A DNA stretch of 64,000 nucleotides from Octopus vulgaris (lineage: Eukaryota). Made by a program: the position numbers and the translations under genes. The stretch spans positions 69,440,001 to 69,504,000 of the forward strand of contig OX597814.1 in assembly GCA_951406725.2 (NCBI GenBank), given 5' to 3'. Shown here in pieces: positions 3,701 to 63,124 of the stretch; positions within the stretch are counted from its first letter, which is position 1; every line of letters starts with the position of its first letter. Below the pieces are notes generated by a model that did no database searches, was not told the origin of the DNA, and saw only the letters and a program-made list of their open reading frames with translations.

Positions 3701-4208
3701 TATAAGAATTTTTTGCATAATGAGATAAAAAAACCAAGGCTGTGTAGATAGAACATTTATAGATAGGTCTTACAGCTGTTTCCAGGGTATTTATTACTTC
3801 ACCGGAGACAGTGTGAGAAGATTGTTAAGTAATAGTTAGTTTAGATAGGATACAAAATAAAGAGTGAGGTTGAGGAAAGTAAACAGATATAAGATATGTA
3901 GAGATATTGAAGTTGTAGATCCATTTTTCAGGCAGAATGGTATATATGTAAGATATAATTAATAAATATCCTGGAAAAAGCTGTAAGACCTTCTATCTAT
4001 AAATGTTCTAATATCTACACAGCCTTGGTTTTTTATCTCATTATGCAAAAAATTCTTATATACACACGCTGACATGTGACCAACATTGAACCCATTATTC
4101 GCAAAATTACTGAACCTGGAACATAACTATGGTCTGTCTATAGCACTTATTCAGCATTAACTAACACCTTTGGGTTTCAATGACGCCATTACCTCTTATA
4201 ACGTCAAG
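3701..4208. mobile_element. Small fold-back element between (TA)n tracts, probably PLE-derived
   Basis: Inverted arms 3701-3796 / 3960-4060, a ~160 nt spacer, a ~150 nt tail and then (TA)n. Confidence 0.7.
3767..3809 (-). ncRNA. Degenerate type I hammerhead ribozyme-like motif
   Basis: Minus strand GTCT-CCGGTGA-(16 nt)-GAAA-CAGCTG-TA-AGAC. Stem I GTCT/AGAC and palindromic stem III are present; there are two core transitions versus CUGAUGA and stem II is weak. Confidence 0.5.
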
Positions 4209-4226
4209 ATATATATATATATATAC

Positions 4227-4458
4227 TTTATTTTTAAAAGCAGCAGAAATATAACAAAAGTTGTTACTCAGAGTTTCACATTCCTGTTTGTCGGACAGTT
4301 TTTTTTTTAACAAAACTGTCCGACGAACGGGAATGTGAAACTCTGAGTAACAGCTTTTGTTATATTTCTGCTGCTTTTAAATAAATCATATTACTCTACC
4401 TCTGGTATTTGAGTACTCTTTTTTCCCACCTTGTTTCATATATATGTGCTTACTCCAG
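4227..4458. mobile_element. Small fold-back element with head-to-head hammerhead motifs, between (TA)n tracts
   Basis: Arms 4227-4302 / 4312-4385, then a tail (TACTCTACCTCTGGTA..CCACCTTGTTTCA..TGTGCTTACT) shared with the copy at 47654-47856. Confidence 0.75.
4312..4358 (+). ncRNA. Minimal type I hammerhead ribozyme-like motif (U4C variant)
   Basis: AAAACTGT-CCGACGA-ACGGGAATGT-GAAA-CTCTGAG-TA-ACAGCTTTT; predicted cleavage after 4349. Confidence 0.65.
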
Positions 4459-4808
4459 TATATATATATATATATATATATACATATAATTCCAAGAGAG
4501 TTAGAGGTCGTGAATTCAATCAACTAAGGGATAATATCTATCCAATATACTTCTGGTAGAAAACCCAATTATTAATACTCAAGTGTTTTTTCATTGCATG
4601 GTAATTACACTACTGAATGTAATAAATGGGTGAGGGTACAAAATTTTTTTCCCTTAATTTATACAGCAATAAGAAAATGGAGGGGATCAAGAGGTGGTAT
4701 TTATCAACTTTTGGACAGTATATTATGTCTATTTATTTATTTTTTTAAATACCACTTATAACAATATACATACATGTATAACATATTATGCTTTACATAT
4801 ATAATATA

Positions 4809-6778
4809 CTAGCAGTATAGCCCAGCTTTACTTGGGATTAAGTTAGGATTATTAAGCTAATCAAGCTCTTTATTTCAAAGCAGACTAAGTAACATCGACG
4901 TCAAATTTGAGTGAAATCTGTTGAAATTGGCAAACTTTTGGCTGAAATTTTGCAGAAAATTTGATTGGGAAATCCCATAAGGAATCAGTTTATCGATTTT
5001 TTCCACTCATCGATTGTTTTTTTTTTTCGTTTTTGGGGAACTTAAAGCATTCAAAGATCCTATGAATCCTAAGTAATGCTGGCATCAAGTTTGAACAAAA
5101 TACATCAAAATTCGTAGACGTTATTGTTGAAAATGGGGTGTAACCAATTTTAGTGGAAAGTCCTATAAGGAATCGGTTTATCGACTTTTTTGTCCTGATT
5201 AAATGGAAAACCCCATAAGGAATCAGTTTATTGATTTTTCACCCCAAATAGGACTTAACCAAACATTGCTGATTCAAAAACATCTATATTTATACTTTAA
5301 AGTTGGTTTTCATACCCAACCCGGTTCTGCAGAATCAGTGTCGCGATGGAAGTGCATGGGTTGGGAGTTTGATTGGCAGAGGTGATCAGGTTGCATATGC
5401 CAACCCTTTTGGAAACACCACCCCCATCATGTAACCCCACTTTGCCCATGGGTTGAGAACCCTTCCAACAAGGAAAATAGAACGTCCAAAATGGCCCCCG
5501 ATCCTCTGTGTTAGAAGCGGTTATGCTCAGATCACAACTAAGTATATATATGGGCAACACACACACACACACACAAACATATACGTACATACACCTATTG
5601 CATACATGTTTTTGCATTCCTTTACCCCAGCCACTGTCCCACCACCACCTCCTACCCAAGTAATACCATCAATTGAAGCAAATTTGGCACCCAGAAGTAA
5701 GTTTTGTAACAAGAATAGAGACGCCTACCTTCCCCCGCAGAGATGTGAGAATCATATCTCTCCTTTTGAAAGCATGAACAGTTTCGAAATTTTGTTTACA
5801 AAATAATAGCTGATGATTTGCAAAGGAGTGTGTCTACAGTCAACACATAGGTCTTTTGCTCTGGTAACCTCTGCTCTCTCCCATGTTCACATATAAGGGG
5901 TAAAGACCCCCTTCGGTCATGAGTGACCATGGGATTGCACCTAGAAAGTTACCGTCCTAGACACAAGTCCGGGCAAGGTTGTTTATGGAAGATCAGCAGT
6001 CGCCCATGCATACCAGCCTCCCCTCTCCATGCCACCAGTGGTTTCCAAGGGAAAGACAAAGGTCGATACAGCTTGGCACCAGTGACGTCGCAACTCATTT
6101 CTACAGCTGAGTGAACTGGAGCAACGTGAAATAAAGTGCCTTGCTCAAGAACACAACACGCAGCCCGGAATATATATGTTCACATATAACCAGCTATATG
6201 TCACTATGAGTAGAGCAACGGATTCAGCTAATTTGGAAATTAGTTGTGGAGAAACGGAGAATATCGTTTATATTGTGTATATATACGGGCAACACACACA
6301 TTGCATACATGTGTTTTGTATGCATACATGCTCATGTGTATGCGTGTGTGACTGAAGCCATTCACACATACATACATACATACATACATACATAACAATA
6401 CCTGTCTGTCTGTTTTTGCCTGTCAATCACTCAGTAAAAAGACAAAATTTTAAAATCTGTTATCTCTCTCTCTCTCTCTCATTCTCTCTCCCTCTCCCCC
6501 CTCTCTTTGCACCGTCACTAGGAGGGGACTTAACTCATGTTTGGTTTGTAAACAATGGTGAATTTCTCCACTTTAAAAATTGTCTAAAGTTATGGCTCAA
6601 AATTATTTACCGCTATTCGCGGGTGCCTCGGGGGAATATAATTTGACGAAAATACACCTAGGATCATGACGAATGTCCTCCTAAAATTTGAGTGACATGC
6701 GTGCTAATTTGTGGATGTGCATAAACTACATTCATGTACACAAACACACACACACATCCTGCCTTATATATACACAGA
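4809..6778 (-). mobile_element. Non-autonomous Helitron
   Basis: The minus strand begins TC at 6778 (TCTGTGTATATATAAGGCAGGATG) and ends with hairpin CCCAAGTAAAGCTGGG + CTATACTG-CTAG|T at 4809. Termini match the copy at 7729-8930. Confidence 0.7.
5896..6170 (-). mobile_element. SINE-like insertion within the Helitron
   Basis: Minus strand GTTGTGTTCTTGAGCAAGGCACTTTATTTCACGTTGCTCCAGTTCACTCAGCTG resembles the post-B-box core of tRNA-derived SINEs. Confidence 0.55.
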
Positions 6779-6831
6779 TAAAAATACCAGTAATTATTAA
6801 AATATAAAACATAGAGCATAGAAAGTAGGAT

Positions 6832-60996: not shown

Positions 60997-61660
60997 ATCA
61001 TCATCATCATCATCATTTAACATCTGCTTTCCATGTTGGCATGGATTGGACAGCTTGACATGGAGCTGGCTAGCAGGGAGCTATCCAGACTCCAGCTGTC
61101 TATTGAGGCATGGTTTCTATGGCTGGATGCCCTTTCTAATGCTGACCACTTAAAGTGTGTTGGGTGTCATTTATGTGCCACTGGCACAGGTGTGTTTATA
61201 CAACACCGGCTTGGGTGCATTAACACAGTACCAGCATGGGTGCCTTTTAAGTGGCACTGACACCTGAAAGGACAAGCTTGTACGTGTGGAAGACATTGAT
61301 TTTACTTAGCTTGGTGTTTCTTATCAAGTACAGCAAATCACTATATTTCCACAGTGAGGCCCAGCATCTGAAGAGCCTTTCTCACCACTTTGTCTCATAT
61401 CTTCCTGGGTTTACTCTTTCCAAAGGTACCCTCCACAATAAGAGATCAGTACTTCTTTATGCAGCTGTCCTCATCCGGACACATCACATGACCAAACCAG
61501 CACAATCGTCTCTCTTGCACACATCTGATGCCACTTATACCCAGTTTTCCTCTTAAATAATTAACACTCTGTCATGCATACCAGTGAAGCATGCCAGCTT
61601 CATTTCTTTCAAGCCTTCACAAGTCCTCTGCAGTATAAGGCCTCCTTTCACTACCATGTA
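60997..61660 (-). mobile_element. Older RTE family A 3' fragment
   Basis: (CAT)n, diverged 3' UTR and C-terminal coding remnant. Confidence 0.75.
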
Positions 61661-61934
61661 GGTGGCCTTAAACTGCAGTGTCTTCATATCTTACCAAGCT
61701 ATTGTTGATTTGGATAGCTGATCGCTATCTTCATTTACATACAAGATCAAAAATAAGATCACATATGCAAAAAAGAAATGAACACACAATACAGAAGAAA
61801 AGTAATTTTTGCATCTGTGATTTATTTTTGATCTATTATGTAAATAAAGATATTTCCTTCGTTTTGCTGCTTTTCTTTCTATGTAATGAGAAGATACACT
61901 GCGGAACTGTTATCTTAATGAGTTGTGTCTATTT

Positions 61935-62040
61935 ATCACCTGATGAGACACATCTGCACTGCCAGATGCTCCTGAACCAGTTGTTAAGCATCCCACCTGT
62001 GAAGGCTCAATGCCAGATGTATCAAAACAACTGTTGTGAT
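61935..62040 (+). ncRNA. Decayed type I hammerhead ribozyme-like motif
   Basis: ATCAC-CTGATGA-GACACATCTG...CAGATGTATC-AAAA-CAACTG-TT-GTGAT, followed by AATAAA. Confidence 0.6.
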
Positions 62041-62302
62041 TAATAATAAATTTTCATATATTCCATCTTCTATCTTTTATTTATCATATATGTACATACA
62101 CATGCATAATTAAGGATAAAATCTAATGATCTTATCAGTGGCCTTACTCTGGTATTATCTTGATCAAATACACACATGGTTGAGATGAATAATCAAATTT
62201 GCCTCATATATACATGTGGATATATGTATATATTTGTATATATATATATGAATGTATTTGTATGGGTATGTATATATATTTATATTCATGTACTTCTAGT
62301 AT

Positions 62303-62363
62303 ATTCTATTGATGAAGGTAAAGTAATTTGTATTACTAAATCAGAAATTGGATGATCTAGAAT
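62303..62363 (+). ncRNA. Decayed type I hammerhead ribozyme-like motif
   Basis: ATTCTA-TTGATGA-(AGTAAT/ATTACT hairpin)-GAAA-TTGGATGA-TC-TAGAAT; 6-bp stem I; tail ends in (TA)n. Confidence 0.5.
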
Positions 62364-63124
62364 TAATCTCAAAATTTTACTAAATCTCTGTTTTCATTTG
62401 CTCGCTTTCATCCTTGTACTAATGGAGTGTAATTGAAGTGGTTTTTAGAGTTTTTTGATGTCTATATCTAGTTTGTAGGTACTGTTTCTCAGTACCCTTA
62501 ATTTTAATTATATCTATAGTTATATATATATATATACACACACACATGTACTTACATACCCCTCTCTCTATATTTATATATATATATATATATATATATA
62601 CATATATATATATATATATGTATATATATATATATATACACACACACACACACACATATATATATATTCAATCAGTTGTTCTTAAATCTGAAAGAAGCAC
62701 ACTCTAAAACAATTTTTCTGAGCAGTCATATTTTATGTAGTCATTGGTTGCGCCCAGTCAGAAGGTCATCACTGGTTTCACATATATTAATGCCCATAGC
62801 AATATAAGCAATCGAACAGATTTGCTGGTACATAACCTCTTTATCAAAGGGGTAAAAATACAGCCTTGGTCAGCTTGGTGGTGCAAAATTTTTTATAAGT
62901 GGAAACTCCAATGTAGGCTTCCCTGCCTGCTGACTAGTGTATGGAAAATGTACATAAACCGATACTTTTGGGATGCAACTGGAGCTGTTGAAAGGGAGGT
63001 AACTCCATTTCTCTGAGAAAAGGTTAACATTGAAAATATTTCATTTCAGGTGTTTTTTCACCTATCAAGCTGCACAAGTCTGTATTTACACCTCCATTAG
63101 TAAAGAGATTGTGAAACCAATGCT

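What the first reader, a model, noticed from the sequence alone, without database searches (positions are those of the whole stretch)
3701..62520. A dispersed class of tiny non-coding fold-back elements at (TA)n tracts carrying hammerhead ribozyme motifs
Seen: at least five 0.2-0.5 kb units (3701-4208, 4227-4458, 8971-9310, 47654-47856, 56671-57087) share one layout: (TA)n, inverted arm, spacer, arm, unpaired 70-150 nt tail, usually (TA)n again. They belong to about four unrelated sequence families. Eight hammerhead-like motifs occur in the window, mostly in or near such units. Known: Penelope-like elements carry minimal type I hammerheads with palindromic stem III and form inverted pLTRs with a 3' tail. 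Inference: these are non-autonomous or extremely truncated PLE products, a ribozyme-bearing microsatellite-targeting retro-MITE system that ORF-based annotation misses. PLE RT and GIY-YIG relics in the same window are candidate partners.
Basis: partly seen in the sequence, partly recalled or inferred. Interest (0 to 1): 0.85.

Follow-up and report, generated by a model that had tools for sequence, protein, structure and literature searches.

The report
Tiny fold-back stubs of Penelope retrotransposons
These short hairpin-shaped DNA pieces sitting in TA repeats are real, and they are most likely the clipped tail ends that Penelope-like jumping genes leave when they insert, a pattern already described, rather than a new class of mobile element.

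Summary
The five units exist as described: (TA)n, inverted arm, forward arm, 72-149-nt tail; four families. Hammerhead motifs are solid in U2/U4, degenerate in U1, doubtful in U3, absent in U5; relaxed motif counts equal shuffles. The U2/U4 ribozyme is the sub-type published for Hydra-clade Penelope-like elements. In animal DNA inside another assembly, an ORF-bearing Hydra family has the same 280-nt ORF-less fold-back, 95-98% identical to its own 3' end, among copies with two fixed 3' ends and scattered 5' ends. The window holds four Hydra relics and one deleted Neptune-like fold-back, none shown to be a parent. Best reading: extreme 5'-truncation products of PLE insertion, primed from both target strands at two internal RNA start sites. 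The layout, TA targeting, tail and opposite-strand hammerhead pairs are in print. A self-propagating retro-MITE is not excluded but has no support here; copy number in this genome could not be measured. Extras: local DNA captured in two spacers, cDNA ends near the ribozyme's 5' edge, one G3:C8 hammerhead. New members of a known kind.

The parts
3704..4206 (+). U1: inverted arm with degenerate hammerhead (3704-3833, core with two changes, stem III ACAG/CTGT, on -), captured local DNA (3834-3908), 48-nt filler of unknown origin, forward arm starting inside stem II (3957-4057), 149-nt tail
3834..3908 (-). U1 spacer piece, 75 of 75 identical to the reverse complement of 7595-7669
4227..4458 (+). 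U2: near-perfect fold-back; Hydra-type hammerhead in both arms (4313-4356 +, U4C change; 4258-4301 -, U4C and G8A); arm ends about 36 nt after the cleavage site; 72-nt tail
8971..9310 (+). U3: 41-nt inverted arm, 157-nt spacer, arm, 101-nt tail; only a doubtful hammerhead-like motif seen by eye (9096 and 9162)
47654..47856 (+). U4: same family as U2; forward arm starts at the hammerhead core (47717, core intact, stem I impaired), inverted arm has an 11-nt deletion through GAAA; same arm end and tail end as U2; no right (TA)n
56671..57086 (+). U5: 31-nt arms, about 105 nt unassigned, 155 nt copied from the neighbouring RTE relic, 94-nt tail; no hammerhead found
56807..56961 (+). U5 spacer piece: 1 mismatch in 155 to 56210-56364, 7 to the paralogue at 49746-49900
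12398..13492 (+). Larger fold-back of the same plan: 450-nt arms of an internally deleted Neptune-like PLE (RT motif FYGLPKIHK fused to the end of the GIY-YIG domain, same fusion in both arms), decayed U3:A8 hammerhead at 13297-13329, about 180-nt tail, (TA)n
9753..9937 (-). Solo stub between TA-rich flanks with a well-paired hammerhead whose core has G3:C8 instead of C3:G8 (9871-9919), about 120 nt from cleavage site to TA
6781..6990 (-). Solo hammerhead-like stub: exact core, about 105-nt stem II, stem III ACAG/CTGT as in U1
57301..58721 (+). Decayed Hydra-clade PLE ORF (N-terminus to RT), 200 nt downstream of U5
   Evidence: best domain E 2.8e-22; reversed-window control best E 6
17078..17387 (+). 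Decayed Hydra-clade GIY-YIG endonuclease to ORF end
10133..11014 (-). Decayed Hydra-clade thumb/linker relic
1331..2099 (-). Decayed Hydra-clade RT relic
61926..62520 (+). Old hammerhead-like remnants (tandem degenerate pair 61934-62045; a further motif 62302-62364 ending 160 nt before (TA)n); weak, seen by eye and at E 2-5

Best explanation
The units are most likely extremely 5'-truncated insertions of ordinary Penelope-like retrotransposons, of several families (U2/U4 likely Hydra clade). Inferred mechanism: the element's GIY-YIG nuclease would cut a (TA)n tract on both strands; each 3' end would prime reverse transcription on uncleaved element RNA, one at an inner start site (arm end) and one at an outer start site (tail end); both cDNAs would stop after 40-300 nt, often just past the hammerhead, and be joined head to head, sometimes with nearby host DNA copied into the joint. 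Shown here: the layout, the two fixed ends shared by U2 and U4, the hammerhead sub-type, the captured pieces, and the same mini structure in an ORF-bearing Hydra family elsewhere. Inferred: the cutting, the double priming, the joining, and that the stubs are dead ends. The ribozyme is carried because it lies in the terminal repeat; it is not needed to explain the insertion.
For: (1) U2 and U4 share arm end and tail end but differ at the centre. (2) Their hammerhead (stem I CTGT/ACAG, stem III ACTC-N-GAGT, cleavage after A) is the sub-type listed for Hydra-2_aMil and Hydra-2_aJap in File S2 of PMC8557442; nearly all Hydra families there target (TA)n. (3) A pattern search returned 5 loci; three (L056-L058, one MAG, animal DNA) carry this hammerhead at the end of Hydra-type ORF pieces, L059 carries it in a tandem repeat, L055 is a chance hit in a bacterial gene. 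L056 has (TA)n, 600-nt inverted copy, forward copy cut about 18 nt before the core, arm ending 34 nt after cleavage and a 56-nt tail, against 36-38 and 72 nt in U2/U4; whole 3' ends align at z 4.1 and 4.3, 0 of 1000 shuffles. (4) In that assembly a second, ORF-bearing Hydra family has a 280-nt ORF-less fold-back between TA tracts (L070), 97.7% and 95.4% identical to the ORF-linked 3' end, cut 14 and 9 nt before the core; among 10 pieces at >=95% identity (one is the query copy) 3' ends fall at 1302 (5) or 1362-1364 (4) or 1323 (1), while 5' ends scatter (<=1, 91, 829, 1021, 1189, 1194, 1252, 1269, 1277, 1312). One 100-nt insert there joins an inverted arm and a non-overlapping tail piece, so neither was copied from the other (L078). 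(5) Full-length Neptune-like loci place a palindromic-stem-III hammerhead about 90-570 nt after the ORF and, where visible, 100-110 nt before (TA)n (L002, L018). (6) The window's 1.1-kb fold-back shows the same plan with coding remnants. (7) Literature: inverted 5'-truncated copy, tail, (TA)n targets (PMC8557442); opposite-strand hammerhead pairs 100-700 bp apart ascribed to truncated PLEs (PMC4209133); both-strand cutting, two internal start sites, ribozyme cleavage dispensable in vitro (PMC11167929); host DNA captured between pLTRs (PMC3846280).
Against: No parent element of U1-U5 was found: no genome is held, six 12-nt unit motifs are absent from the PMC8557442 supplement, and the one published octopus Hydra hammerhead differs. 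Outside the hammerhead the likeness of U2/U4 to L056 is not significant (z -0.6 to 1.9). Model R3 ranks U2/U4 first (E 1e-5, 0.003, 0.014) but its members were retrieved with a pattern drawn from U2/U4, so that test is partly circular; models from Neptune-like hammerheads missed U1, U2 and nearly U4. U3 and U5 have no convincing ribozyme and are tied to PLEs by layout alone. Tails (72-149 nt) are longer than the published 30-40 nt. Four of four cDNA ends in U2/U4 lie 0-13 nt before the core, more clustered than simple random truncation predicts.
Confidence: 0.75

Rival explanations
1. Non-autonomous retro-MITE/SINE-like partner: a short RNA starting just 5' of the hammerhead is copied in trans by a PLE protein, so that the fold-back or the solo pLTR amplifies as its own lineage.
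For: Seven cDNA ends in three families stop 0-18 nt before the core (U2 twice, U4 twice, L070 twice, L056 once); pLTRs suffice in cis for mobilisation in trans (PMC3846280); non-autonomous PLE derivatives exist (PMC8557442; bioRxiv 10.64898/2026.07.22.740005); both arms of the 12.4-13.5 kb unit carry one internal deletion, so a non-coding RNA was mobilised in trans at least once.
Against: U2 and U4 centres differ (a later deletion at the hairpin tip could also do that); in G001 only 2 of 10 5' ends lie at the ribozyme edge and the mini is 95-98% identical to an ORF-linked end; L056 and L070 were found with ribozyme-centred queries, which biases toward such ends; no unit but U2/U4 has a second copy in 64 kb.
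Confidence: 0.15
2. One cDNA only; the inverted arm arose by snap-back synthesis or later palindrome formation, and captured DNA is a repair scar of a fragile hairpin.
For: U2, U4 and the 1.1-kb unit are near-perfect palindromes; captures have short imperfect microhomology at one junction and cannot be dated apart from the arms.
Against: U1's inverted arm holds the core that the forward copy lacks and the forward copy holds the tail; L056 has a 600-nt inverted copy with a short forward copy, and L078 joins non-overlapping pieces; arm ends recur at one site per family.
Confidence: 0.07
3. Class II miniature elements (MITE or foldback type) with terminal inverted repeats inserted at TA, hammerhead likeness being chance.
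For: Inverted arms and TA flanks; relaxed hammerhead counts equal shuffles; U3 and U5 lack a clear ribozyme.
Against: The second arm is never terminal: a 72-149-nt tail lies between it and the TA tract, and U2/U4 share that tail; the ribozyme sub-type and geometry match ORF-linked PLE ends.
Confidence: 0.03

Closest known systems
[quoted passage not shown] 2021, PMC8557442; passages, section 11 and supplement parts seen)
   Same: (TA)n targets, 3'-terminal hammerhead of the ACTC-N-GAGT or ACAG..CTGT type, inverted 5'-truncated copy (noted for Penelope-13_HM), tail; Hydra relics in the same window
   Different: Units are 0.2-0.5 kb with no coding sequence; tails 72-149 nt; these families are not among the consensus sequences probed in that supplement
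Solo and opposite-strand minimal hammerheads of truncated PLEs (Cervera and de la Pena 2014, PMC4209133; results and discussion read)
   Same: Type I, palindromic helix III, extra base after A9, pairs on opposite strands 100-700 bp apart, U3:A8 variant
   Different: That paper does not map arms, tails or TA targets; a G3:C8 core is not mentioned in the parts read
Poseidon PAc of anole, in vitro mechanism (Frangieh et al. 2024, PMC11167929; main text read)
   Same: Both strands cut and extended, two internal start sites give the tail, AT-rich targets, ribozyme cleavage not required
   Different: Other clade; start sites lie inside the ORF start; joining of the two cDNAs was not shown
Animal non-LTR retrozymes (bioRxiv 10.64898/2026.07.22.740005, parts 1-3 of 5 read; PMC7229834 listing only)
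   Same: Non-coding, type I hammerhead, pLTR-derived
   Different: Retrozymes are head-to-tail arrays with intact ribozymes; these units are dispersed, head-to-head and mostly mutated
Adineta vaga Penelope elements (Arkhipova et al. 2013, PMC3846280; parts 1-3 of 5 read)
   Same: Inverted pLTR overlapping the direct pLTR at a 5' palindrome, optional tail, host DNA captured between pLTRs
   Different: Penelope/Poseidon clade, low copy, 8-10-bp target duplications rather than microsatellite targets

Membership tests
EN+ Penelope-like element insertion (truncated copy) | Inverted 5'-truncated copy joined to a forward copy | tested here: met
   5 of 5 units plus the 1.1-kb unit
EN+ Penelope-like element insertion (truncated copy) | Tail on one arm only, with family-fixed ends | tested here: met
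   Tail in 5 of 5; fixed ends testable only for U2/U4, where they agree; longer than the published 30-40 nt
EN+ Penelope-like element insertion (truncated copy) | Type I hammerhead with palindromic helix III near the 3' end, sense strand | tested here: inconclusive
   Met for U2, U4; degenerate in U1; doubtful U3; not found U5
EN+ Penelope-like element insertion (truncated copy) | Arm plus tail equals the 3' end of an RT + GIY-YIG element of the same genome | not testable with these tools
   No genome held. Met for the 1.1-kb unit and for the analogue L070 in G001, not shown for U1-U5
Hydra clade | (TA)n target | tested here: met
Hydra clade | Hammerhead sub-type as in published Hydra families | tested here: met
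   U2/U4; U1's ACAG/CTGT also occurs in other hammerheads of G001, so U1 is not assigned
Hydra clade | ORF with DKT, RWK and CxCx5C motifs | not testable with these tools
   Units have no ORF; the 118 proteins used to find the relics have DKT in 113, CxCx5C in 116, RWK in 72
Non-LTR retrozyme | Head-to-tail tandem units each with an intact hammerhead | tested here: not met
   Units are head to head and single; only a decayed pair at 61.9 kb is tandem
Non-autonomous PLE partner (retro-MITE) | Many copies sharing one junction and own diagnostic changes | tested here: inconclusive
   Two copies of one family, junctions differ; genome-wide count not available
Class II MITE | Inverted repeats at both outer termini | tested here: not met
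   A 72-149-nt tail lies outside the second arm in 5 of 5
Active hammerhead ribozyme | Self-cleavage as monomer or dimer | not testable with these tools
   Predicted folds only; G3:C8 stub forms stems I and II, z -1.6

The most novel reading that the evidence does not exclude
The 5' edge of the hammerhead is a programmed stop (RNA start or a cDNA hairpin at stem I), so PLE proteins stamp out ribozyme-bounded head-to-head stubs that are themselves transcribed and re-mobilised in trans: a family of non-autonomous retro-MITEs at (TA)n, which also pick up neighbouring host DNA at their joint, and of which one lineage uses a natural G3:C8 hammerhead.
Probability: 0.13. Interest if true: 0.65.

Novelty: new member of a known kind. 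Interest (0 to 1): 0.3.

Why it matters
If the best reading holds, these stubs are genomic footprints of a step that is still unproven in PLE biology: double priming at two start sites and head-to-head joining. They give exact start sites and joints to test in vitro, and they show that ORF-based annotation undercounts PLE DNA (the PLE-assigned pieces listed, some of them weak, cover about 11% of this window). That is useful to specialists but not surprising: the layout is in print. It would matter more if the stubs proved to propagate on their own, or if the G3:C8 core is a family trait; natural U3:A8 is reported (PMC3088659 passage; PMC4209133), and my one search for G3-C8 returned only an engineered variant (PMC3884650).

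Tried and rejected
No whole genome is held, so copy number, empty sites and parent elements in this organism remain unmeasured; no read or contig data were obtained on them. Run search: 20 of 24 listed runs, five coded organisms, hold part of 3700-9950; no RNA holder listed; nothing concluded. Rfam: no hammerhead in the 150 of 159 rows shown. First descriptor found nothing because stem I was too strict. Motif regex for PLE proteins found nothing clear. Pfam on 150 of 396 stop-free frames (those outside obvious LINE relics) found no PLE domain; a Neptune-like profile found only the 12.6-13.1 kb relic, which misled me until Hydra proteins were used. Exact-pattern scans for the G3:C8 stub (metagenomes), U2/U4 (genomes; viral) found nothing; the U1-type pattern gave two viral loci that look like chance. 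Models R1 and R2 from Neptune-like hammerheads do not recover U1 or U2. CTGATGA at 9185(-), 47457(+), 18010(+) and in the 2-kb tandem repeat were rejected as ribozymes (no second half); 2206-2131(-) passes a descriptor but lies within a Hydra ORF relic's span and is treated as chance. The idea that U1's capture is younger than its arms was dropped (0 of 75 against 3 of 98 is not significant). Earlier-findings look-ups by place and sequence were blank. Eight paper searches found no paper devoted to ORF-less fold-back PLE stubs; subscription journals and bioRxiv supplements were not visible.

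
Full report
Setting. The window is 38% G+C animal DNA, almost all intron of an axonemal dynein heavy-chain gene on the minus strand (exons at 34486-34785 and 60319-60558), packed with RTE, Tx1-like, Ty3-like and Tc1-like relics. Its repeats reminded me of octopus; that is recalled, not tested. 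No assembly is held, so all genome-wide questions had to be approached through relatives.

The observation. All five units are there, with arms of 31-100 nt, tails of 72-149 nt and (TA)n on the arm side in every case. Arms next to (TA)n are far above background: 4 of 54 tract ends against 5 of 1314 control positions at score 40, and most high controls belong to a sixth, larger fold-back. U2 and U4 are one family (81.6% over 141 nt); U1, U3 and U5 are unrelated to them and to each other. All five, and the larger one, point the same way, opposite to the host gene (6 of 6, noticed after the fact). The hammerhead count is weaker than stated. Rfam shows none in the 150 of 159 rows displayed. Exact-core descriptors give 2 loci against 0.42 and 0.15 in shuffles, but with two mismatches the window equals its shuffles (18 against 15.2; 9 against 9.2). 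Convincing motifs are in U2 (both arms), U4 (forward arm) and a solo stub at 9871-9919; U1 has a degenerate one in the right place; U3 is doubtful; U5 has none.

Coding relics. The palindrome at 12398-13310 carries the PLE RT motif FYGLPKIHK. Its three best homologues are RT + GIY-YIG proteins with a cysteine linker, Neptune-like by that feature (no tree was built). In both arms the RT piece is fused directly to the last residues of the nuclease; a decayed U3:A8 hammerhead follows at 13297-13329 (top hit of model R1, E 0.37; the other arm keeps CCGG), then about 180 nt and (TA)n. It is the same plan at 1.1 kb. A profile of 118 Hydra-type proteins finds four more decayed relics, at 1.3-2.1, 10.1-11.0, 17.1-17.4 and 57.3-58.7 kb (best E 2.8e-22; reversed control E 6). 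None shares DNA with U1-U5.

What full-length elements look like. Of 54 Neptune-like loci from metagenome contigs, 18 pass a strict descriptor, a few by chance, and model R1 finds 21 matches, 8 of them its own members or their copies. The motif lies about 90-570 nt after the ORF, mostly with stem III CCGG, and 100-110 nt before (TA)n in L002 and L018; U2 and U4 have 110 nt. File S2 of PMC8557442 lists for Hydra-2_aMil and Hydra-2_aJap the very arrangement of U2/U4: stem III ACTC-N-GAGT, cleavage after A, stem I ending ACAG. A pattern scan then returned animal DNA inside a MAG (L056-L058; 3 of 5 loci) where this ribozyme ends Hydra-type ORF pieces. L056 shows (TA)n, a 600-nt inverted copy, a forward copy cut about 18 nt before the core, an arm ending 34 nt after cleavage and a 56-nt tail; U2/U4 give 36-38 and 72. 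The whole ends align above all 1000 shuffles (z 4.1, 4.3), but the part after the ribozyme alone does not (z -0.6 to 1.9), so this is shared sub-type and geometry, not a parent.

The nearest thing to the decisive test. In the same assembly (G001) a second Hydra family with an ORF-linked copy gave 20 matches to its 3' end. Among the 10 pieces at 95% identity or more (the query copy included; the more distant matches were left out) 3' ends fall at two positions 60 nt apart (5 and 4 pieces, 1 other) and 5' ends scatter from the ORF to the last 50 nt, 6 of 10 within the last 180 nt. One product, L070, is a 280-nt ORF-less fold-back between TA tracts with a hammerhead in each arm, cut 14 and 9 nt before the core: a twin of U2. 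Another, L078, is 100 nt long, has no ribozyme and joins an inverted arm to a tail piece that does not overlap it. So tiny fold-backs are a normal product of an autonomous Hydra family, and two separate priming events are needed for at least some.

Mechanism. Shown in print for a Poseidon element (PMC11167929, main text read): both target strands are cut and extended, reverse transcription starts at two internal sites whose distance is the tail, and ribozyme cleavage is dispensable. Inferred here: the cDNA from the inner site becomes the inverted arm, the one from the outer site becomes arm plus tail, and they are joined head to head. The units run through the cleavage site, so the template was uncleaved RNA. 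In U1 and U5 the joint holds neighbouring DNA: 75 of 75 to a site 3.7 kb away, and 154 of 155 to the RTE relic 600 nt away against 148 of 155 to its paralogue. Capture at insertion and early repair of a fragile hairpin both fit; the U1 donor also begins with a 12-nt match to U1's own stem II, which I cannot explain, so it may be family sequence. Host DNA between pLTRs is reported in Adineta (PMC3846280).

What is left open. Four of four cDNA ends in U2/U4, two in L070 and one in L056 lie 0-18 nt before the catalytic core. Model R3 ranks U2/U4 first but is partly circular. U3 and U5 are tied to PLEs by layout only.

Comparison and verdict. Inverted truncated copy, tail and (TA)n targeting are described in PMC8557442 (passages); opposite-strand minimal hammerheads 100-700 bp apart are ascribed to truncated PLEs in PMC4209133; non-autonomous pLTR derivatives are the tandem retrozymes (bioRxiv 10.64898/2026.07.22.740005; its supplements were not visible), which these units are not. 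Octopus genomes are known to hold TA-targeting Naiad and Hydra families and 190 PLE families covering 6.8% of O. vulgaris (PMC13282606 supplement passage); giant squid has 235 Rfam hammerheads (PMC6962438 passage). The units work like PLE insertions; membership is met for U2/U4 except for a parent in the same genome, and is by layout for U3/U5. New members of a known kind; interest 0.3.

Noticed in passing
window 9871-9919 (-): Hammerhead with a compensatory G3:C8 core, 7-bp stem I, 5-bp stem II, extra base after A9 and palindromic stem III, in a 185-nt solo stub nested in another small element; on the host pre-mRNA strand. One copy only; no match in metagenomes.
   Followed up: partly
window 6839-6960 (-): Exact hammerhead core halves separated by a roughly 105-nt stem II that folds as a long hairpin; stem III as in U1.
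   Followed up: partly
window 7583-7669: Donor of U1's captured piece; starts with a 12-nt match to U1's own stem II, unexplained.
   Followed up: partly
window 36875-44414: Decayed tandem array of a roughly 2-kb non-coding unit (four copies, spacing 1.3-2.3 kb) with small hairpins and an ATC-tailed repeat inserted in the first copy.
   Followed up: no
window 27693-27813 and 28447-28533: Two copies of another likely PLE 3' end before (TA)n; the second has hammerhead core halves with stem II deleted.
   Followed up: partly
window 20201-20239 (-): Hammerhead-like motif, top hit of model R2 (E 0.009), in AT-rich DNA without an arm.
   Followed up: partly
window 17569-17641 and 61726-61852: Two small palindromes; the first lies about 180 nt after the Hydra nuclease relic, between TA-rich bases; neither fits the arm-plus-tail plan clearly.
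   Followed up: no
window 2464-3629, 21632-21981, 28566-29622, 38422-38731, 45472-45896, 53834-54862, 59275-60059: Abundant RTE-derived repeat family with an (ATC)n end and 66-90-nt internal repeats.
   Followed up: no
window 18004-19842 and 31345-33955: 136-nt terminal inverted repeats of a likely Tc1-like element; a Ty3-like relic with an integrase zinc-finger hit.
   Followed up: no
L056-L058, L062-L103 (G001): A bacterial MAG of 12 Mb contains much animal DNA rich in Hydra and Neptune-like PLEs and Rfam hammerheads, several in palindromes of 230-450 nt (L089, L090, L091, L101).
   Followed up: partly
window, all six fold-backs: All point opposite to the dynein gene; the hammerhead copies of U1, U2 and U4 that lie on the pre-mRNA strand are all mutated or deleted in the core.
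   Followed up: no
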